From Octopus sinensis (Eukaryota): a stretch of 64,000 bases of DNA. Where the stretch lies: positions 144,398,001 to 144,462,000 of the forward strand of contig NC_042999.1 of NCBI RefSeq assembly GCF_006345805.1, in the 5' to 3' direction. A model generated the notes under the pieces. It was not told the DNA's origin, did no database searches, and worked only from the letters and a program-made list of their open reading frames with translations. Every line of letters begins with the position of its first letter. Positions within the stretch are counted from its first letter, which is position 1. Positions 3,001 to 54,500 of the stretch are shown here, piece by piece. Position numbers and translations under genes: made by a program.

Positions 3001-3240
3001 TGGAGATTTTATATATAATATATATATATATTATGTGAAATAGAAAGATGAATAATCTTGTAGTAGATTAATCAAAAGTTTAACCGATACCTTAGTAGCA
3101 AAAACAAGCAGTAAACAGCACGGTTGGAGGTACAACATCTGGCGTTGCAACCGTGCGTTGGTGCGGATAATTGAAATTAAAACGTTATTGGTGAATTGAA
3201 GAAATGGAGCTGAACGCAGATTGAACAGAAATCGTTTTAT

Positions 3241-3327
3241 TTCATTCTACACGTGTTTCGAAAGGCACAAATTACCAAAATCCGATTGAATAATGGGACC
3301 ATATTGTGTCTTTCTCTTCAGGAAGAA
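3241..3327 (-). ncRNA. Minimal type I hammerhead ribozyme (Penelope pseudo-LTR)
   Basis: Reads ttcttc-CTGAAGA-gaaagacacaa...ttgtgcctttc-GAAA-cacgtg-TA-gaatgaa; palindromic stem III; followed by AATAAA. Confidence 0.8.
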
Positions 3328-4451
3328 AAAAGGAAATCCGCTGAAAAACAAAAACAGAACAGAGGCGGAGCAAAGCAAATCGAACTATGCTCCTAAGAGC
3401 CCATGGCGAAACTGTTTATCAGTGTATGTTGAGAACCGGTGGCTGAAGAATTCAACGGGTCAGGCATCGGTCAATCATGTGGTGAGGGTGTATAGATGTT
3501 CTTTGTGACCGAGCATAAAGTTCTGACTATTTAAGGAATATTGGATGTTTTATAAGGGGCGAGAAAAATCTACTTAGAGACGTGTGTGTGTGTATACTGT
3601 TCTATATATGTGTGTGTTGGCGTAGGGGTAGAAAACATTTTTTGTGTACGTGTGTGCATTTGATCGTTCGGCTGTCAGTGGCTACTGCCGTGATAACCGT
3701 TGGGTGGCAGAAAGAAAAAAAAAAATATATATATATTATGTTTTATGTGTGTGTGTGTTCATCTAAGCCTGCCTTGTCAAGGAAACCCCCGCTGTGAAAA
3801 AACCAAGCCCCGTTTGTCTTACAGGAGTAATTCCCCTTGCAGTGGTTAATCGTAGATATCTTAAAGGCTATTTCAGAATTTGTTACCAAGGGCTATGGGT
3901 GCCGGTATTATTTATAACGCTATTTAAAAGCCAGATAAGTGTAACGCCGCCAATGGGGGCATCGAAAGCCGACTGTAGAGCCCGTTTACCATCCGGCCTC
4001 TGGCAAACAAAATATGGAAGAGTTCGGAGACCAAAGGTTGCACTGTCTTCTGCCCCTATCAAATGGGAGGGCACCGACAAAATTGACCATTCCAGCCTAT
4101 AGCTTAAGTTCGTATCCTTCAGTCGCCATATTAGCTTACTGAGTCCCGTGGTCTGGCGCTTGTTCACGTCCCGAAAAGTTGCGTAATGGTTGGAGACACG
4201 CAAAGACAATCTTGAGGATGATGCCCCTACATAAGTGAAGACATCTGAAGACATCTTTATGCTCGGTCACAAAGAACATCTATACACCCTCACCCACATG
4301 ATTGACCGATGCCTGACCCGTTGAATTCTTCAGCCACCGGTTCTCAACATACACTGATAAACAGTTTCGCCATGGGCTCTTAGGAGCATAGTTCGATTTG
4401 CTTTTGCTCCGCCTCTGTTCTGTTTTTGTTTTTTCCAGCGGATTTCCTTTT

Positions 4452-4538
4452 TTCTTCCTGAAGAGAAAGACACAATATGGTCCCATTATTCAATCGGATT
4501 TTGGTAATTTGTGCCTTTCGAAACACGTGTAGAATGAA
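4452..4538 (+). ncRNA. Minimal type I hammerhead ribozyme (inverted copy)
   Basis: CTGAAGA 4458-4464, stem II gaaagacacaa/ttgtgcctttc, GAAA 4520-4523, CACGTG, GUA cleavage triplet, stem I ttcttc/gaatgaa. Confidence 0.8.
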
Positions 4539-4639
4539 ATAAAACGATTTCTGTTCAATCTGCGTTCAGCTCCATTTCTTCAATTCACCAATACGTTATT
4601 ATATATAATATATAATATAATATATATTATATATATTAA

Positions 4640-9478: not shown

Positions 9479-12115
9479 GATCATCATCATCGCTTTCCAT
9501 GCTATCATGGGTTGGACGGTTCAACTGGGATCTGGGAAACCAGAAGGCTGCACCAGGCCCAGTCTGATCTGGCAGTGTTTCTACAGCTGGATGCCCTTCC
9601 TAACGCCAACCACTCCGTGAGTGTAGTGGCTGCTTTTTATGTGCCACCGGCACAGGCGCCAGATGAGGCTGGCAACAGCCACGATCGGATGGTGCTTTTT
9701 ACATGTCACTGGAACGGAGGCCAGTCGGGGCAGTGCTGGCAACAGCCATGTTCAGATGGTTCTCTTACGTGCCACCAGCACTGGTATCACAATTACAATT
9801 TCCATTGGTTTTGATCGATTTCGATTTCACTTGCCTCAACAGGTCTTCACATTTAGAGTTTTGTGTCCCAAGAATGAAAGGTATGCATAAGTGGACTGGA
9901 TACATCCAAGGTGTAGAGGCCACGGGTTATGGTCTCTCTTATCCTGCCAGGTCTTCTTACGCACAGCATACTTCCAAAGGTCTCGGTCACTAGTCATTTC
10001 CTCGGTGAGACATAATGTTCGAAGGTCGTGCTTCACCAACTCGTCCCAGGTTTTCCTGGGTCTACCTCTTCCACAGGTTCCTTCAACCACTAGGTGTGGC
10101 ACTTTTCACACAACTATCTTCATCCATTCTCGCCATATGACCATACCAGTGCAATCGTCTCTCTTGCACACCACCACTGATGCTTCTTAGGTCCAGCTTT
10201 TCTCTCAAGGTACTTACACACTGTCGAGTATGAACACTAACACTACACATCCATCGGAGCATACAGGCTTCATTTCTTGTGAGCTTACGCATATCCTCAG
10301 CAGTCACGGCCCATGTTTCACTGCCATGTAGCATGGCTGTTCGTACACATGCAGTCTGCCTTTTACTCTGAGTGAGAGGCCTTTTGTCACCAACAGAGGT
10401 AAGAGCTCTCTGAACTTTGCCCAGGCTATTCTTACTCTAGCAGTTACACTTTCAGCACACCCGCCCCCCGCTACTGACTTGGTCACCTAGGTAATGGAAG
10501 CTATCAACTACTTCTAGTTTTTCTCCCTGGAATGTGGCGGAAGTTGGTCTCTGCACATTTTCAGTGTTTATTGCTCCTGAGAATCTGCCACATACAAAAA
10601 CTATCTTCCTAGTTAGCCTTCCTTTGACATTGCTGCACCTCTTATGTATCCATAGCTTACACTTGGTGCATCTTATAGAGTTTCTACCTACGCCTTTTCT
10701 ACATATCAAGCAGGGCCATCTACCTGAAGGCATTTGTGATTTGTCTACCTTCCTACTTCTTAGGACTTTGCTTTTAGCTAGGTTGACTCTAAGGCCCTTT
10801 GATTCTAATCCTTGCTTCCACACCTGAAACTTCTCCAGTTCTGATAGTGACTCAGCAATTAGAGCAAGGTCATCAGCATAGAGGAGCTCCCAGGGGCATC
10901 CTGTCTTGAATTCCTCCGTTATTGCCAGGAGGACTAGATAAATAGGAGGGGTCTGAGGACTGAACCTTGGTGGACCCCTACATCTACCCGGAATTCTTCA
11001 CTGTACTTGTTGCCAACCCTCACCTTACTAACAGCGTCCCTGTACATGGCTCACACAGCTCTCATTAACCATTCATCAATCCCTAGTTTCCTCATTGACC
11101 ACCAGATAAGGGATCGGGGAACCATGTCAAAGGCTTTCTCCAGCAGCTTTCTTACCAGGAATATAGCATCAGTGGTACTTTTCCCTAGCATGAACCCAAA
11201 CTGCATCTCAGCTAAACTGACTCTCTCTCTAAGTAGTTGGGCTATGACCCTCTCCGTGACCTTCATTACTTGATCCAGTAACTTGATACCTCTGTAATTA
11301 TTTGTATCTAGAGCGTCACCTTTACTTTTGTAGCAGTTGACTATTATGCTGCTACACCAGTCATTGGACATGACTCCTTCCTGTATCACCTGGTTAACTA
11401 TAGGGGCGACTAGGCTATAGCCGATACTGCCAGATATTTTGAGCATCTCTGCAGTGATTCCTGATGGGCCGGGGGCTTTCCCTGCCTTCATATTCTTGAT
11501 TGCTTTAACTACCAAGGTACTGTCAATTCGGATAGCTGTTCCCTCTGTTGGGTCGACATTCGGCAAACTCTCTTTCTCCCATTCATTCTCTTTATTGCAC
11601 AACCTTTCATAGTGGCGTCTCCAAACCTCTTTCTTTGCAGCCTCATTTAGTGCAAGTGAACCATCATCCATAGACACATTTGTCTCCTACCACATCACGA
11701 TTCTCTCTCATGCACTGTCTTGCAACACGAAATACTTCAAGTCTTTGGTCCTCATGGCGAAGAACATGGACAAATTTTTTCTTATCTGCTAAATAAACCC
11801 GTCTCCTAGCTTCCCTTGTGGCAGTCTGATACAATTCCCTGCTACCTCCGTTCTTCCAGTCCCACCAAGCCCGTTTCTTTTGTCCAAAAGCCCTGTCAAC
11901 CACATTGTTCCACCACCACGTTACCTTGGGTTGAGATGGGACTTTGCTCCATCCACAGATCTGGTGAGTGGCTCTCAGCAGATTGTCCCGTAGAAACCTC
12001 CAGTTGTCTTCCACATTATGTAATGCTATATCCCCTTCTATTTCATCGAAGGCTTCGAGTAGTACATCTCTAAATCTCTGCCCATTTGCAGGATCTTTAA
12101 GCTTCCAGACCCTTC
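9479..12115 (-). mobile_element. 5'-truncated RTE-clade LINE, frameshifted RT to 3' end
   Basis: KAPGPSGITAEMLK, NYRGIKLL, QFGFM, ELLYADDL (~10875), MLHGSETW, RLHWYGHM, GRGRPRKTW; (GAT)n-type tail at left end. Confidence 0.95.
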
Positions 12116-17512: not shown

Positions 17513-18894
17513 AAACAGACAGATAGATATATAAGGAGAGTGGAATAGTCATTACCCATAAGCTAGAGTTTCACTTGTTGCTCTGATGTTTCAAGTTACT
17601 GAATTCTGAACCATTAATTAAATTTTTTTTATTAGTAGAAATAAGTAAATGGAACCCAGTCAGTTCAAACAATACAGACCCCAGTTATTTAATCAGCCAA
17701 ACTTCCTTTTTACTAAGTATTTCACAGATACCTGTACCTTTAATGCAATTCAAAGATAGAATCAACTGAAATCACACAGAAATAATAATTTGTGATTGTA
17801 TTCATGATAATGAGTCAACATTACAATGTGACAAGACTGGTCCTTTCAATTATAGGTACATTCTATCTGATGGACTTTCACTTACTCTCTTATCAATTTA
17901 GTTCATAAGATGCCACTCAATACAATAGTATTCAGGGTATCATGATTGCAGAATGATAACCACTTGAACATGCTTGCATCCAATAATTTATGGGTAAACA
18001 AGTGGGTAGATAAATAGGCAGCTATTTTTGTATCAGCTTTTCATTCAACCATTAAATACATGACTATCTCAGGATTTTCAATATTTCTTTATTAGTTCTT
18101 TATATTTGATTTGGAACAACAATGTTCTTAAAACCATGGTCTGAGACTTCAAGAGTTTCATAACCTCATTTTCAAATGAAGCTGCTGCAATAGCATGTAG
18201 TCTGCACAGTGACTAAGTTACAAAGGGTGTCAGTACATCATTTTACATTTCTCTACACTACATTAACTGAAAATGAATACCAGTTGAATGTTATTGCAGC
18301 CCTCTCTCCTCCCAGCTGCTATATCCTCGGTATTTTATTGCATCCAGGGTAGCAGAGCTGAGAGGGTGTCTATATATGATTGTGGCTACATACGTACCTA
18401 AAACAATTTAGCAAAATTTTGGTACAAGCTATCAAGTCATACTTGCTTACAAGTGACAGCCAAGTACTCTGTGTGTGTGTGTGTATAAAACCATGTCCAT
18501 TTTTTCCTCCATGTTTGCAAGGGATGATTGGAACTTATCAGGACCAGAACACTTTCTGTCACCAGCCCTCACTTGTTTCCAAGCAAAGTAATATTTCCTC
18601 ATGGCTAGGACATGTTTTCATACAATACTGGAAATACTCATTTACACTGTCATGTGATGTCAAGTCAAGGAGACACAAACATACACATACACAAACACAC
18701 AGAAGCATGTGTGATTGAGAAAATTTCTTTGCAACCATATAGCTTCAAGCATGAATCTGTAGTGCAGTGGCTTGGAAAAGTGAACTGACCAATGACTTCA
18801 AGTGAAATTGATAGGCAGAAACGGTGCAAAAACTTGTCCTATATATTATGCACACACTCATGCACACATACATAAATGTGTGTTTGCATGTTTC

Positions 18895-18926
<32 letters not shown>

Positions 18927-18929
<3 letters not shown>

Positions 18930-19770
18930 TAAGTAATTAAGGGTTTAGCAACGAATTGCCTCACCAACACACCGAATTTAGAAATAGCAGTCAAAGAGAT
19001 ATAGCTATTCCTTCTACTAAAAGGGGGATCTCAGTAAAAACACAGCACTTGAAAAGCAAACACAGACAGGTAAGAAAGAAAGAATGAAATGACGGCAATC
19101 TATCATACAATTTTAAGTTACCTACGGACGTACGTTTCGAAATCAAGTTTTAGGAAAGCATAAGAATTAGAAAGCCGATGAGAAAAGAAGTTTGGGTAAG
19201 GTAGAATTTTCTAATTCTTATGCTTTCCTAAAACTTGATTTCGAAACGTACGTCCGTAGGTAACTTAAAATTGTATGATAAATTGCCGTCATTTCATTCT
19301 TTCTTTCTTACCTGTCTGTGTTTGCTTTTCAAGTGCTGTGTTTTTACTGAGATCCCCCTTTTAGTAGAAGGAATAGCTATATCTCTTTGACTGCTATTTC
19401 TAAATTCGGTGTGTTGGTGAGGCAATTCGTTGCTAAACCCTTAATTACTTAGTATTACTTAAATTTTCCTCGAATGGGGCTTTTACATGCCGAAATCTAC
19501 TTGGTGTAATTGATAATTATTCCAAATTAATTAATTTCACCCTTTATTGTTACTGATAACCATATTTTATCCCAGTAAATGACCACAGCATTTTGTCTTG
19601 GCTACACGCGGGTGGAAGGGGGCTGGTGACACAAACTTTCATTCACACTTTGAATTTCATGGTACTGGTCATGCTTTGGCTCGCTCTGACACTGAGTTGA
19701 GATAATGCCTTCTAATATACAATTATTCATAATTGTAGTATCCTGCGCCGATGAGAAAAGAAGTTTGGGT

Positions 19771-19776
<6 letters not shown>
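18927..19776 (+). mobile_element. Non-coding fold-back hammerhead element, copy 1 (retrozyme- or Penelope pseudo-LTR-like)
   Basis: Inverted arms 18927-19173 and 19208-19454; 30-bp direct repeat at 19174-19203 and 19747-19776; (TA)n flanks. Confidence 0.8.
19175..19260 (+). ncRNA. Hammerhead core with CCGAUGA variant; stem I partner at 19742-19747
   Basis: CCGATGA-long stem II-GAAA(19243)-cgtacg-TC-cgtagg; cctgcg precedes the second CCGATGA and pairs with cgtagg. Confidence 0.7.
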
Positions 19777-19818
<42 letters not shown>

Positions 19819-19823
19819 ATATA

Positions 19824-20668
19824 TACTAAGTAATTAAGGGTTTAGCAACGAATTGCCTCACCAACACACCGAATTTAGAAATAGCAGTCAAAGAGATATA
19901 GCTATTCCTTCTACTAAAAGGGGGATCTCAGTAAAAACACAGCACTTGAAAAGCAAACACAGACAGGTAAGAAAGAAAGAATGAAATGACGGCAATCTAT
20001 CATACAATTTTAAGTTACCTACGGACGTACGTTTCGAAATCAAGTTTTAGGAAAGCATAAGAATTAGAAGCCGATGAGAAAAGAAGTTTGGGTAAGGTAG
20101 AATTTTCTAATTCTTATGCTTTCCTAAAACTTGATTTCGAAACGTACGTCCGTAGGTAACTTAAAATTGTATGATAATTGCCGTCATTTCATTCTTTCTT
20201 TCTTACCTGTCTGTGTTTGCTTTTCAAGTGCTGTGTTTTTACTGAGATCCCCTTTTAGTAGAAGGAATAGCTATATCTCTTTGACTGCTATTCTAAATTC
20301 GGTGTGTTGGTGAGGCAATTCGTTGCTAAACCCTTAATTACTTAGTATTACTTAAATTTTCCTCGAATGGGGCTTTTACATGCCGAAATCTACTTGGTGT
20401 AATTGATAATTATTCCAAATTAATTAATTTCACCCTTTATTGTTACTGATAACCATATTTTATCCCAGTAAATGACCACAGCATTTTGTCTTGGCTACAC
20501 GCGGGTGGAAGGGGGCTGGTGACACAAACTTTCATTCACACTTTGAATTTCATGGTACGGTCATGCTTTGGCTCGCTCTGACACTGAGTTGAGATAATGC
20601 CTTCTAATATACAATTATTCATAATTGTAGTACCCTGCGCCGATGAGAAAAGAAGTTTGGGTAAGGTA
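19824..20668 (+). mobile_element. Fold-back hammerhead element, copy 2
   Basis: Near-identical tandem copy of 18927-19776, separated by (TA)n. Confidence 0.8.
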
Positions 20669-20671
20669 TAT

Positions 20672-20713
<42 letters not shown>

Positions 20714-20759
20714 GTGTTTGTCTGTTTCTTAATATATATATGTGTGTGTGTGTGTGTGT

Positions 20760-21064
20760 GGAGGCGCAATGGCCCAGTGGTTAGGGCACCAGACTCGCGG
20801 TCGTAGGATCGCAGTTTCGATTCCCAGACCAGGCGTTGTGAGTGTTTATTGAGCAAAAACACCTAAAAGCTCCACGAGGCTCTGGCAGGGGGTGGTGGCG
20901 ATCCCTGCTGTACTCTTTCGCCGCAATTTTCACTCACTCTTTCTTCTGTTGGCCTGCTCACTTAGCCAGCGGGGTGGCGTCATTTGAAGGCTAAAACAAT
21001 GCGAAGCGCATTGTGACCAGCGATGTGTAGCAACATCTGATAGCCTGGTCGGTCATGTGACATG

Positions 21065-30841: not shown

Positions 30842-31793
30842 AAAATACAACAGCAATTAGTAGTCATATTCAGGTCTGTGAGAACATATTAAGAATGAAT
30901 AAGTTTGTCAATATCACTCTTATGTGTACACATAATTTATTGATTTCAAACTTTTGTCTTGTTATCAAAATGATAGACATCAACATGGCTTGGGCTAGTG
31001 CTTGTTGTTTTCATGTATCAGTAATTCACATCACCAGTCAGCAGATGTAAACCAACCAACACAGGTGCTATGTTATAGATTGCCAGAATAGAACTGAAGA
31101 ATGACTACTCACACAAAAAAATATATTGCATTCTCTGAAACTATTAGAGTCACTGTTGTGGTTGGGGGTTTTATATTATTTCCCCTCACACATTGTCATC
31201 TTGTTGTCATAGTTATTATATTTACTATTTACCCTTTATGTCATTTTTATATAACCAACCACCACAAACTGAAGAAGCTACTCAGCATGCTCCATGGAGC
31301 AGCCAGTATTCCCCAACAAACTTCTCTTCATCTTTAAGAAATAGAGCATATGTTTTAAAGCCTAAGTTTTGACAATAAGCGCCACAATAAATTTGAGCTG
31401 GTCACTGCTAAAATATGAATAGAATGATCATTTCAAAGTAAACCACTAGATATTTTACAGCTGCATACCCGTAGTGTTTCATCTGTGAGTTTACCACTAG
31501 GTATTTGATCAATTAACTCTATTATACATGTACTCAGAGTTAAACCAGTCTACTAAATAACACTAAACCATTTTATTCAAGTTGCATTCATTTGGTTTAC
31601 ACTAAAGCAACAATCTAACTTTTAATTACTTAATATGTATATCTGCATCTCTATCTAGCAGTGGAGTGAACCACAGAGGTTGAAGAACTAGTGTTTTAGT
31701 ATGGTGCCATAATTTATTTTATTTATTTATTTACTTATTACAGCTTGCAAATTTCTTTTCACTTTTTATAACCCTGCCTTGCATCCATTACAG

Positions 31794-32218
31794 TTCCAAA
31801 ACTGGTGATTCTTCGGAAGAAACTGTTGCTGAAGTTGCATCCAGTAAGAAAGAAGAGAGTGAAAAGAAAGAGGAAACACCCAAAGAATCTGAAAATCAGG
31901 AAGATATGGAGGTCGAGAGTAAATCATTAGACAAAAACAGTGAGAACAACAACAATAAGAAAGACACTGAATCATCAGAACAGCCACAGCTACCAACCAC
32001 ACCACCACCTCCACCTCCAAATGAAACTGAAACACCACCTCCACCACCACCTGATGACTCCCCATCCATGGAAACTGAAGTAGATAATGCGCCCGACACA
32101 CCAGCTACCATCCCTGCCACACCAGTGGCTGCAGATATGGTTGACCTTTCAGAAATGGAGACTGACATGAACACAGCCTCAAAATCAAACGATACTGATG
32201 AAACAACATCCCAAACAG
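31794..32218 (+). CDS. ASH2L: ASH2L coding exon 2, acidic and Pro-rich low-complexity region
   Basis: ttacag acceptor, 425-nt open frame (includes ORF 31906-32262, PTTPPPPPPNETETPPPPPPDD), CAG|GTAATG donor; phases 2 to 1. Confidence 0.88.
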
Positions 32219-32289
32219 GTAATGGTCTTCAAGGGAAAAATGAGGTTGTTGATGTTTGGTAGTTTTGTTTTTTTAGAGCATTTTGTTCA

Positions 32290-46712: not shown

Positions 46713-47524
46713 GTAGGTATTCTTCAGCACACCTTATACAGTTTTCTTTCTTTCCTTATTTTGTTCATTTTTTTCTACCATGCTACAATCATCACCATCA
46801 ACAGCATCCTCGTTTAACGTCTGCTTTCCATGCTGACATGGGTTGGATAGTTTGACTGAGGACTGGTGAGCTAGAAGGCTGCACCAGACTCCAATCTGAT
46901 CTGGCAAAGTTTCTACAACTAGATGCCCTTCCTAATGCCAACCACTCTGAGAGTGTAGTGGATGTTTAATTCTATTGTGTGTACAAATACACTGCAGACA
47001 TGCATGTGTATACATAAGTATGTAAGAATACACCTGTGCATTATTGACATTGAAATATGTACTTCCTGAGCATCTATAGTACAAGTAAAATAGATGAGTG
47101 AATAATATATTGCAGGGACAGCTAATACATTTAGATCTTCTGCTGATATTTTGTTGTTTATGTAATAGTTTCAGTTATCCTAGCTGTCAAGGATAGGTAC
47201 AAAAAGGAGATATTTATCTCACATTCATGTACCACTAATAGAATGAACTACCTGTCTGTAAGAGCCTGTTGAAAGTATTTTTGCATACTCATATTTATGT
47301 ACCTGAAGACATACTTCATAAAACAAATATTGCAAAATTGAGAGTGCTTGTGGTTATTTTGAAAACTGTAAGATTGTTGGAAGTTAATAGAGAACCATGA
47401 AAAATTATTTTCTTTTGAAATTGTACTTTCTCTGACATTTGTTCTAGAGATAAAGTAATATCCACTTGAGGTGGACTAAAGCTGCAGTCTTCAGAAAGAA
47501 CATCTTCAAAAGATTATAGATGAT

Positions 47525-49530
47525 GGGAAAAAGAGAGTCTGCAAATGTCGACCCAATTGAGGGACCAGCTATTCAAATTAGTAGATAAAGCAATTAAGGG
47601 TATGAAGACAGGGAAAGTTCCCAGCCCATCAGGAATCACTGCTGAAGTTCTTAAAATCTCTGGCAGCATATGCTATAATCTAGTCAACCAGGTGATACAT
47701 GAAGAAGTCATACCTTATGACTGGTGTAGCAGCACCATAGTCAACTGCTACAAATGTAATGGTGACGCATTAGATAGGAATAATTACAGAGGTATCAAAT
47801 TGTTGATGAAAGTTACAAAGAGGATCATAGCCCAACCAATTAGGGAGAGAGTTAGTTTAGACGAGATGCATTCTGGGTTTGTGCCAGGGAGAAGAACCAC
47901 TGATGCAGGAGAAATTTCTAGCCAAAGATAATTCTCTGTACTTGGCTTTTGTTGACATGGAGAAAACCCTTGACAGAGTCCCTTGATCCCTTATTTGGTG
48001 GTCAGTGTGGAAACTAGGGATAGATGAGTGGTTGGTGAGAACTGTAGAAGCCATGTATAGGGATGCTGTCAGTAAGGTGAGGGCTGGCAACAAGTATAGT
48101 GAAGAATTCCGGATAGAAGTAGGGGGTTCACTAAAGATCAGTCCTCCAGGTAATAACAGAGGAATTTAAGACAGGCTGCCCCTGAGAGCTCCTCTATGCT
48201 GATGACACTTCTCTAATAGCTGAGTCACGATCAGAACTAGAGAAGTTTCAGGTGTGGAAGCAAGGTCTAGAATCAAAGGGCCTTAGAGTCAATCTAGCAA
48301 AAACCAAAAACTGGGAAGGCAGGCAAATCACAAATCCCTTCAGGTAGATGGCCCTGCTCAATCTGTAGAAATGGCGTAGGTAGAAACTCCATAAGATGTA
48401 CCCAGTGTAAGCTATGGATACATACGAGGTGAAGCAATATCAAAGGAAGGTTAACTGGGAGGATAGTTTTTGTATGTGGCAGATGCACAGGAGCAATAAA
48501 CACCAAAGATGTACAGAAAACAGATTCTATCACATGCCAGGGGGAAAAACTAGAAGTAGTTGATAACTTCTGTATACTAGGTGACTAAGTCAGTAGCAGG
48601 AATGGCTGCTCTGAGAGTGTAGCTGCTAGAATAAGAATAGCCTTGGCAAAGTTCAGAGAGCTCTGACCTCTGCTCGTAACAAAGGGCCTGTCACTCAGAG
48701 TGAAAGGTACTGTATGATGCCTGTGTACAGTGAAACATGGGCTGTGACTGCTGAGGACATGTGTTGGCTTGAAAGAAATGAAGCTAGTATGCTCTGCTGG
48801 ATGTGTAATGTCAGTATGCATATACGACAGAGTGTAAGCTCCTTGAGAGAAAAGTTGGACATAAGAAGCATCAGATATGGTATACAAGAGAGACAATTGT
48901 ACTGGTATGGTCATGTGTTGTGTATGGATGAGGACAGCTGTGTGAAGAAGTTACACACTAACAGTGGAGGGAACCTGTGGAAGAGGTAGACCCAGGAAGA
49001 AATGGGATGAAGTGGTGCAGCACAACATTTGAATGCTGGGCCTCACAGAAGCAATGACAAGCAACCGAAACCTTTGGAGATATTCTGTGCTTCAGAAGAC
49101 TTTTGCAAAGTGAAATCGTAGTCATAGCCGATGCCAGTGCTGCCTGACTGGCAGCCATGCTGGTGGCACGTAAAAAAGCACCATTCTATTGTGGCCGATG
49201 CCAGTGCCTCTTGACTAGCACATAAAAAGCACCATTCAGGTGTGGTCAATGCTAGTGCCTCCTGACAGGCTCATGTATTGGTAGCATGTAAAAAGCACCA
49301 TTCGAGCATGGTCGATGCCAGTGCCTCCTGACTGTCTCCCATGCCACTGGCACATAAAAAGCACCCACTACACTCTTAGAGTGGTTGGCGTTAGGAAGGG
49401 TATCCAGCTGAAGAAACCTTGCCAGATCAAATTGAAGCCTGGTGCAGCCTCCTTGCTTGCCAGTCCTCAGTCAAACCATCTAACCCATACCAGCATGAAA
49501 AGCAGATGTTAAACAGTGATGATAATGATG
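47525..49530 (+). mobile_element. 5'-truncated decayed RTE LINE
   Basis: KVPSPSGITAEVLK, NYRGIKLL, ELLYADD (~48190), SETWAVTAED, GRGRPRKKW; 3' UTR repeats and tail. Confidence 0.93.
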
Positions 49531-54039: not shown

Positions 54040-54500
54040 TATTGAGGATTCTCCTATTTAGTACAGGGTATGTTTCATTTATGAGGACATACTCCTGTAT
54101 TTGAGTATTGGGTCTTTCAAGTACTTGGATAAAATGCGAATTTCAAGTCGACCTAGTGTGCCTCCATGTTGGTCTTTGGCATGTTGGTAGAGTATAGAGG
54201 AGTGTTTTTTGTCGTCATATTGTCTCAAATAATTATTTAATCTCTCCATAATGCTTCTAGATGTCTCACCAATGTATGTCAAGTTCCTGTCTTTACAAGC
54301 ACCCTCTATGCACCTTATGCTGTAGACTACATTTCTAGTTCTACACTTAATGCCAGGGTAAATCTTACATACCATGCAGTTCTCAAATGGGTACGTCCTA
54401 CATAACTGATCTGATGGCACTCCCTGGCTTTTCAATGAGCTTAATGTTGAGCTTGGTCTCCTTCCATATAGTTACTACTTGCATCTGTTATAGAGATTTT
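54040..54500 (-). mobile_element. Penelope-like GIY-YIG endonuclease fragment
   Basis: CRTRNVVYSIRC...LTYIGETSRSIMERL...SILYQHA (ORF 54079-54435). Confidence 0.85.

What the first reader, a model, noticed from the sequence alone, without database searches (positions are those of the whole stretch)
18927..19776. Fold-back, circularly permuted hammerhead element with no ORF (retrozyme-like)
Seen: a 247-bp arm, a 34-nt loop and a 247-bp reverse-complement arm (one mismatch noticed), then ~290 bp unique sequence, then an exact repeat of the first 30 nt of the loop. This defines a 573-bp monomer (19174-19746). The core CCGATGA lies in the loop and GAAA-CGTACG-TC-CGTAGG in the right arm, but the stem I partner CCTGCG occurs only at the monomer end (19742-19747). 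A contiguous hammerhead therefore exists only in a circular or tandem form. Established: metazoan non-LTR retrozymes and Penelope pseudo-LTRs use type I hammerheads and are copied from circular or tandem RNAs. Inference: a cDNA made by slightly more than one turn round a 573-nt RNA plus an inverted second product, i.e. a non-autonomous ribozyme-processed element mobilised by Penelope enzymes. Best candidate here for an undescribed system.
Basis: partly seen in the sequence, partly recalled or inferred. Interest (0 to 1): 0.85.

Follow-up and report, generated by a model that had tools for sequence, protein, structure and literature searches.

The report
Penelope-pasted hammerhead retrozyme, two-armed insertion
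This fold-back is one short, odd-ended copy of a scattered protein-free repeat family that carries a predicted self-cutting RNA motif and sits in AT microsatellites as two back-to-back arms, likely written by a borrowed Penelope-type retrotransposon enzyme, so it is a known kind of element whose copies give useful clues to how that enzyme works.

Summary
The 573-bp monomer, the 30-nt end repeat and the split ribozyme are accidents of this one insertion. The family has a ~582-588-bp non-coding unit with a type I hammerhead (61-nt stem II), 764 exact matches to a ribozyme 20-mer in the genome, and intact ribozymes in its tandem copies. Across 110 insertions, 148 of 165 arm ends fall in two zones about 100 nt apart, and 148 of 165 abut TA-rich sequence. 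In head-to-head insertions with both ends in these zones, 40 of 41 use one of each. Ten of those 40 cannot be fold-back copies of one strand. Coding Penelope-like families in the same genome show the same layout, a Hydra-like one with a similarly long stem II. No coding element sharing this sequence was found. Best reading: a non-LTR retrozyme (PMC7229834; bioRxiv 10.64898/2026.07.22.740005) inserted by two target-primed cDNAs, probably from circular RNA. Circles, expression and cleavage are untested. The scan reported this kind several times on other DNA of this genome. It is not an undescribed system.

The parts
18899..18925 (.). (TA)n target microsatellite, left flank
18926..19173 (-). Left arm: monomer 35-282 in reverse. 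Its outer end is the family's commonest 3' end (position 282, zone A)
19174..19776 (+). Right arm: monomer 1-573 plus 1-30 of the next unit. Its outer end (position 30, GGTA into TA) is unique to this locus
19175..19260 (+). Type I hammerhead without its 5' stem I strand: core CCGAUGA (U-to-C variant; older subfamilies have CUGAUGA), 61-nt stem II 19182-19242, GAAA, 2-bp stem III with palindromic GUAC loop, predicted cleavage after C19254, 3' stem I strand
19359..19570 (+). Monomer 186-397: stretch conserved at 65-84% in an older related family and holding both end zones (A at 19455, B at 19558-19565); likely the site the enzyme recognises (inferred)
19712..19713 (+). Site of a 15-bp deletion against the 588-bp family unit; private to this locus
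19742..19776 (+). 5' stem I strand and start of a second, truncated hammerhead at the unit junction
19777..19822 (.). (TA)n between the two copies
19823..20668 (.). Second copy of the whole two-armed insertion; a very recent local duplication or an assembly artefact
20669..20710 (.). (TA)n right flank

Best explanation
This is one insertion of a dispersed, non-coding ~585-bp repeat family with a predicted type I hammerhead, which sits in (TA)n as one arm or as two head-to-head arms and was likely written by a borrowed Penelope-like (PLE) reverse transcriptase-endonuclease. Inferred steps: tandem donor copies are transcribed. The hammerheads, probably as dimers because stem III is only 2 bp with a palindromic loop, cut out unit-length RNA, which is probably ligated into a circle. 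A PLE protein nicks both strands of a (TA)n site. Each nick primes cDNA inside the RNA at a short TA match, one at site A (~282) and the other at site B (~385-392). Both cDNAs run a variable distance, through the unit junction and up to 7-8 units, and are then joined 5' to 5'. The window's 'fold-back' is such a junction: the left arm started at A and stopped at 35; the right arm started at an atypical GGTA (position 30) and ran 1.05 units. A Hydra-like PLE is the most likely helper, on layout alone.
For: Family size: 764 exact matches to a ribozyme 20-mer, backwards control 0. No ORF: longest stop-free frame in the unit is 67 aa. Ribozyme: stems I and II form with probability 0.92 or more at every stem I and base-of-stem-II pair in a circular fold; 2 compensatory pairs at the base of stem II and an A-U/G-U pair in stem I in 28 variants. 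Ends (110 insertions, 165 arms): 148 of 165 3' ends lie in zones A or B, which span 17% of the unit; 60 lie at position 282; 148 of 165 run into TA-rich sequence; 5' ends are spread evenly (20/17/13/21/21/16 per 98-nt bin in the 76 pattern-sampled loci). 52 of 110 insertions are head-to-head; of the 41 with both ends in a zone, 40 are A+B, 1 A+A, 0 B+B (binomial p 2e-11 against 0.5; 23 of 24 in the pattern-sampled set). 10 of the 40 have arms that are not nested in either direction, so they need separate RNA-templated priming. Single-unit template: 32 sample-private alleles are in all covering units of an insertion (15 on both arms, e.g. 8/8 in L034 and 10/10 in L037), against 16 in only some units, 6 of which come from L158, two neighbouring insertions. 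Coding PLEs in G000 behave alike: a Neptune-like family (RVT_1 + GIY-YIG) has two ends ~32-35 nt apart; a Hydra-like family (DKT motif; clade traits from PMC8557442 section 11) has a 55-nt stem II hammerhead, two ends ~150 nt apart, and one of each in 8 of 8 resolved two-armed copies. In vitro, a PLE protein cuts and extends both strands at AT-rich DNA and starts at two internal RNA sites (PMC11167929).
Against: No coding PLE with a terminal repeat homologous to the unit was found in about 110 PLE loci of three or four families; the matches seen there were separate insertions beyond a (TA)n. The zones were drawn after seeing the data, and 11 of 52 head-to-head insertions, including this one, have one end outside them. 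Circle evidence is indirect. Within-array divergence (0.47% same arm, 0.68% opposite arms) is hardly below the nearest unit of another insertion (median 0.54%), because the long arrays are a very young subfamily. L036 has a base fixed differently in its two arms, so one shared template is not the rule. L031 has variants shared by two adjacent units, as local duplication would give. Stem III is not predicted in the monomer (probability 0). RNAalifold did not recover stem II. In the cited in vitro work hammerhead cleavage was not needed for insertion, only 1 of 9 frog retrozyme dimers cleaved, and hammerhead-poor Chlamys elements also give multicopy non-autonomous tandems.
Confidence: 0.75

Rival explanations
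1. Same PLE-driven double priming, but on long linear read-through transcripts of tandem donor arrays; the hammerhead is slow or a passenger and no circle is involved.
For: Internal initiation needs no free end, and cleavage was dispensable in vitro (PMC11167929). Young arrays differ by only 0-4 substitutions, so a homogeneous donor would give uniform units too. Non-autonomous tandems exist in a clade that mostly lacks canonical hammerheads.
Against: Private alleles fixed in 8-10 units across both arms need a single-unit bottleneck at some step. Ribozyme stems are kept by compensatory change. Related animal repeats are shown to give abundant circles (PMC7229834).
Confidence: 0.3
2. The inverted arm arises by self-priming (fold-back) of one cDNA, as proposed for PLE inverted repeats, with the second end set by endonuclease resolution. 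This is closest to the first reader's picture of this locus.
For: The window's left arm (35-282) is nested in its right arm and stops at the tip of the stem II hairpin. 30 of 40 A+B insertions are formally nested. PMC3846280 proposes self-priming; PMC8557442 ascribes the tail to endonuclease resolution.
Against: 10 of 40 A+B insertions are not nested either way. Either arm can be the longer (A in 24, B in 16). The window's left arm ends at the family's modal site 282, not at the right arm's start. Junctions are blunt, short overlaps or short inserts.
Confidence: 0.1
3. The copies are terminal-repeat (pLTR) stubs of a coding PLE not yet found, and arrays grew in place by unequal crossover, as bioRxiv 10.64898/2026.07.22.740005 suggests for some retrozymes.
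For: Retrozymes resemble pLTRs. A coding Hydra-like family here has the same kind of long-stem hammerhead in its 3' repeat. L031 and the window's own doubling look like local duplication.
Against: Upstream of the unit lies another unit, an inverted arm or unrelated flank. No shared sequence or PLE protein match in the 5' flanks of 56 single-arm insertions. Arrays have fractional ends at A or B and random 5' ends on both arms, and most variants are in one unit or in all.
Confidence: 0.1

Closest known systems
Metazoan non-LTR retrozymes (Cervera and de la Pena 2020, PMC7229834; Li, Clavereau and Pollet 2026, bioRxiv 10.64898/2026.07.22.740005)
   Same: Non-coding tandem units, one type I hammerhead per unit, low GC, 2-bp stem III with tetraloop, co-existence with PLEs, proposed copying of circles by PLE enzymes.
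   Different: Unit ~585 bp (170-400 nt in the 2020 paper, but inside the 51-972 bp range of the 2026 preprint); 61-nt stem II; dispersed two-armed insertions in (TA)n with two fixed end zones, which the parts of these papers that I read do not describe; no expression or cleavage data; no homologous pLTR found.
Endonuclease-bearing Penelope-like elements: partial tandems, inverted 5'-truncated copy, 30-40-bp tail, (TA)n bias (PMC8557442, PMC3846280, PMC11167929, PMC4209133)
   Same: Head-to-head layout, tail at one end only, (TA)n target, hammerhead in the repeat, two internal start sites.
   Different: No ORF; tail ~100-110 nt instead of 30-40; whole element is the repeated unit; up to 7-8 units per arm.
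Hydra-clade PLEs (PMC8557442 section 11 and supplement rows)
   Same: (TA)n insertion and canonical hammerheads. A Hydra-like coding family in G000 has a 55-nt stem II and a ~150-nt tail with the same one-of-each rule.
   Different: No sequence similarity between that family's 3' region and this unit (local score 35 against shuffle mean 38). The published cephalopod Hydra hammerhead row that I saw has a short stem II.
Non-autonomous Chlamys elements such as MRC1 (PMC8557442 passage)
   Same: Non-coding PLE dependants with multicopy head-to-tail insertions.
   Different: They share 3' sequence with their helpers and belong to a clade that mostly lacks canonical hammerheads.

Membership tests
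Metazoan non-LTR retrozyme | Tandem units each with a type I hammerhead | tested here: met
   Complete motif in tandem arrays, up to 13 or more units per insertion. The window copy itself is only 1.05 units and holds no complete motif.
Metazoan non-LTR retrozyme | No protein coding and GC below 50% | tested here: met
   Longest stop-free frame 67 aa; the 2-kb bin holding the element is 35% GC.
Metazoan non-LTR retrozyme | Unit length within the described range | tested here: met
   582-588 bp; above 170-400 nt but within 51-972 bp.
Metazoan non-LTR retrozyme | Self-cleavage of the RNA | not testable with these tools
   Only structure and covariation.
Metazoan non-LTR retrozyme | Expression as unit-length linear and circular RNA | tested here: inconclusive
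   No run on record as RNA; only contigs of runs guessed to be RNA.
Non-autonomous Penelope-like element | Partial tandem plus inverted 5'-truncated copy, tail at one end, microsatellite target | tested here: met
   52 of 110 head-to-head; 40 of 41 A+B; 148 of 165 arm ends in TA-rich sequence.
Non-autonomous Penelope-like element | Terminal sequence shared with a coding PLE | tested here: inconclusive
   None in the three or four coding families sampled; the genome holds thousands of candidates that were not scored.
Autonomous Penelope-like element | RT plus GIY-YIG ORF | tested here: not met
   No ORF in the unit; PLE ORFs near 6 element loci were partial matches, and the two examined (L170, L173) are separate insertions.
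Rfam hammerhead families | Match above gathering score | tested here: not met
   0 hits in the window, where the motif is split and stem II is 61 nt; an intact tandem copy was not searched.
Plant LTR retrozyme | Type III hammerhead in LTRs with primer-binding site, polypurine tract and 4-bp target duplication | tested here: not met
   Motif is type I in tandem units; target duplications cannot be read in (TA)n.

The most novel reading that the evidence does not exclude
The family records a two-enzyme rolling-circle insertion: a PLE protein dimer engages ribozyme-made RNA circles at two fixed sites ~100 nt apart, primes from both nicked strands of a TA microsatellite, and rolls round the circle on both sides. 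This would explain at once the tandem arrays of retrozymes and the inverted copy and one-sided tail of Penelope-like elements, and it points to a class of long-stem-II hammerheads, shared with Hydra-like helpers, that standard searches miss.
Probability: 0.35. Interest if true: 0.65.

Novelty: new member of a known kind. Interest (0 to 1): 0.4.

Why it matters
How PLEs make inverted copies and one-sided tails, and whether retrozyme arrays are born in one rolling-circle step or grow later by unequal crossover, are stated as open in the papers read (PMC8557442, PMC11167929, the 2026 preprint). A short unit with hundreds of young insertions shows both ends and the junction of each event. The one-of-each rule and the non-nested arms favour double target priming over self-priming, and they name two exact RNA start sites that can be tested in vitro. 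The element class itself is known, and this locus is one of the least typical copies.

Tried and rejected
Rfam gathering search of the window: no hit. Expression: no RNA holder listed; laying four runs guessed to be RNA gave only short contigs of mixed variants, with no start, end, strand or circle information. Whether the doubling at 19823-20668 exists in raw DNA reads stays open. Helper search: 30 GIY-YIG loci, 20 + 10 longer Neptune-like loci, 2 neighbours of element copies, 30 + 20 Hydra-like loci, 20 loci of an older related family; none has the unit as a terminal repeat. Cleavage-site test: 0 of 165 5' ends lie at unit positions 78-86 and 133 of 165 arms cross the site, but both samples were chosen for holding that region, so I do not count this as evidence. 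An excess of 5' ends at 55-71 (14 of 165) may be pausing at stem II or the same sampling effect. The 22-bp similarity of the flanks (18877-18898, 20711-20732) has 2 differences and was not accepted as a target-site duplication. My hand-written upper stem II was partly out of register (one pair never formed); only the base of stem II and stem I are relied on. The strand labels were mis-entered and not used. Rows dropped before counts: second window copy, L048 (duplicate of L047), loci overlapping others; L183 and L184 look like duplicates and both were kept (neither is in the A+B count). The older related family also shows A and B ends, but its query was itself two-armed, so it is weak support.

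Full report
Observation. The palindrome is there: 248-nt arms at 18926-19173 and 19208-19455 with 34 nt between them, one mismatch, and an exact repeat of the first 30 nt at 19747-19776. Rfam finds nothing in the window. Both ends abut (TA)n. A second copy of the whole insertion follows at 19823-20668; it differs inside the element by five single-base deletions and one substitution, so it is a very recent duplication or an assembly artefact. This could not be settled.

The family. The window lies in a 2.72-Gb animal assembly (G000). The monomer matches many loci, often as tandem arrays with a 582-588-bp period, and a 20-mer from the ribozyme has 764 exact matches against 0 for the backwards control. 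The window's unit carries a 15-bp deletion. That junction and the end at position 30 each occur only in the two window copies. So the '573-nt permuted monomer' is a property of one insertion. The unit has no ORF (longest stop-free frame 67 aa).

The ribozyme. In tandem copies the type I motif is contiguous in DNA: 6-bp stem I, CUGAUGA or CCGAUGA, a 59-65-nt stem II, GAAA, a 2-bp stem III with a GUAC loop, and GUC at the cleavage site (101 distinct versions). In 28 of these 101, picked by hand across subfamilies, stem I is fully paired and two pairs at the base of stem II change on both sides. RNAalifold recovered stem I but not stem II. A circular fold gives stems I and II high probability and stem III none. 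A short palindromic stem III is the usual metazoan form and works as a dimer (PMC4209133, passages). The cleaved unit folds better than all 100 shuffles (z -4.5). Cleavage itself is untested.

Insertion anatomy. I examined 76 insertions covering the first 100 of the 764 pattern matches, and 34 further top hits including the first window copy. Of 165 arms, 148 have their ribozyme-sense 3' end in zone A (258-295; 60 exactly at 282) or zone B (340-400; mostly 385 and 392). The zones were drawn after seeing the data and cover 17% of the unit. 148 of 165 ends run into TA-rich sequence, and the common ends sit at short TA matches in the unit. 5' ends are spread evenly. 52 of 110 insertions have two arms head to head. 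In the 41 with both ends in a zone, 40 have one A and one B end (p 2e-11; 23 of 24 in the pattern-sampled set). The other 11, among them the window copy (282 and 30), have one end elsewhere. Single arms end in A 40 times, in B 12 times and elsewhere 4 times. Ten of the 40 A+B insertions cannot be a nested copy of one strand in either direction, and either arm can be the longer (24 against 16). Junctions are blunt, overlap by a few bases or hold short inserts. This fits two separately primed cDNAs better than self-priming, which PMC3846280 proposed (passages). It matches the in vitro behaviour of a lizard PLE protein, which cuts and extends both strands at AT-rich DNA and starts at two internal RNA sites that define the genomic tail (PMC11167929, main text). 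The inverted copy, one-sided 30-40-bp tail and (TA)n bias are described PLE traits (PMC8557442, passages). Here the tail is ~100-110 nt.

Circle or linear template. Of 216 alleles private to one insertion in my sample, 168 are in a single unit, 32 in all covering units (15 on both arms) and 16 in some units, 6 of these from a locus with two separate insertions. Alleles fixed in 8 of 8 or 10 of 10 units point to repeated copying of one unit. The case is not tight: long arrays come from one young subfamily whose members differ by 0-4 substitutions, within-array and nearest between-array distances are alike, L036 differs between its arms at one fixed site, and L031 shows a local duplication pattern. 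I put a circular template at about 0.6. Public runs did not help.

The helper. All end in (TA)n and have two 3' ends. The Hydra-like family has a 55-nt stem II hammerhead and ends ~150 nt apart, one of each in 8 of 8 resolved two-armed copies, which makes it the closest in layout. No coding family examined shares sequence with the unit, and thousands of candidates were not scored. An older non-coding relative keeps only unit 186-397, which suggests that this stretch is what the enzyme recognises.

Comparison and novelty. The element meets every sequence-level feature of metazoan non-LTR retrozymes (PMC7229834, parts 1-4 of 6 read; supplement unreadable, and it may bear on unit sizes and the insertion model). 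That paper and PMC4209133 already propose more-than-unit copying of circles by PLE enzymes. A 2026 preprint (10.64898/2026.07.22.740005, parts 1-3 of 5 read; supplements not seen) links retrozymes to PLE terminal repeats and reports units of 51-972 bp. Seven paper searches listed no description of a one-of-each two-end rule, of non-nested arms or of ~60-nt stem II hammerheads in such elements; the library lacks most subscription papers, and I saw only three rows of the PMC8557442 supplement. This scan has reported the same kind of element, including the two-fixed-ends pattern, several times on other DNA of this genome (e1-8807173, e1-8665878, e1-8807141, and a ~581-bp unit in e1-9522271 that may be this family). 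I had derived the pattern before that look-up, and those notes are not independent support. One note (e1-9526727) leans to a fold-back origin, which the non-nested arms here contradict as a general rule.

Verdict. Real, and a new member of a known kind. The locus is an atypical short copy. The value lies in the family-wide end statistics, which make the PLE insertion mechanism and the rolling-circle idea directly testable. Interest 0.4.

Noticed in passing
window 3030-4600: Two-armed insertion of a coding Hydra-like PLE stub (endonuclease fragment 3883-4266, minus strand) with a 55-nt stem II hammerhead in each arm (3321 minus, 4458 plus). Arm ends lie 216 and 68 nt past the predicted cleavage site. 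The motif was found in 28 of 30 and 17 of 20 related loci; L257 holds an 876-aa frame.
   Followed up: partly
window 19823-20668: Whole insertion is doubled; 5 of 6 differences are single-base deletions, which suggests a read-error-rich duplicate or a very recent unequal crossover between TA tracts.
   Followed up: partly
L083 1674-5374 and 6352; L081-L089: Young Neptune-like family: 479-aa upstream ORF with no Pfam match, 781-aa RT + GIY-YIG ORF (copies 98-99% identical), and a hammerhead variant with core UUGAUAA near its 3' end.
   Followed up: partly
L084, L213-L222: Second young Neptune-like family (775 aa, many near-identical copies) with two 3' ends ~32-35 nt apart; my relaxed scan found no hammerhead in L213-L222.
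   Followed up: partly
L046 1820 and 2926; L084 7916; L087 7629 and 8129; L202 1281: At least four more hammerhead families with 51-55-nt stem II, several in inverted pairs; long stem II seems common in this genome.
   Followed up: no
L073 2618-2868; L042 675-960; L193-L212: Older related family at 65-84% identity over unit 186-397, mostly short two-armed stubs.
   Followed up: partly
window 54079-54471 (minus): Another GIY-YIG fragment (Pfam E 0.00026), probably a further PLE remnant.
   Followed up: partly
window 20761-21050: Dispersed repeat right of the element with a tRNA-like head (by eye; ARAGORN finds no tRNA), probably a SINE.
   Followed up: no
window 31684-32262 (plus): 192-aa acidic and proline-rich frame that looks like a host exon; no Pfam match above cut-off. 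The element may lie in an intron of that gene.
   Followed up: partly
window 10452-12113 and 47524-47931: Decayed LINE reverse transcriptase fragments (RVT_1 E 0.00023 for 11054-11686).
   Followed up: partly
L008, L042, L270 flanks: Element copies sit directly in the TA tract at the 3' end of Hydra-like PLE copies; shared target, or a hint to the helper.
   Followed up: no
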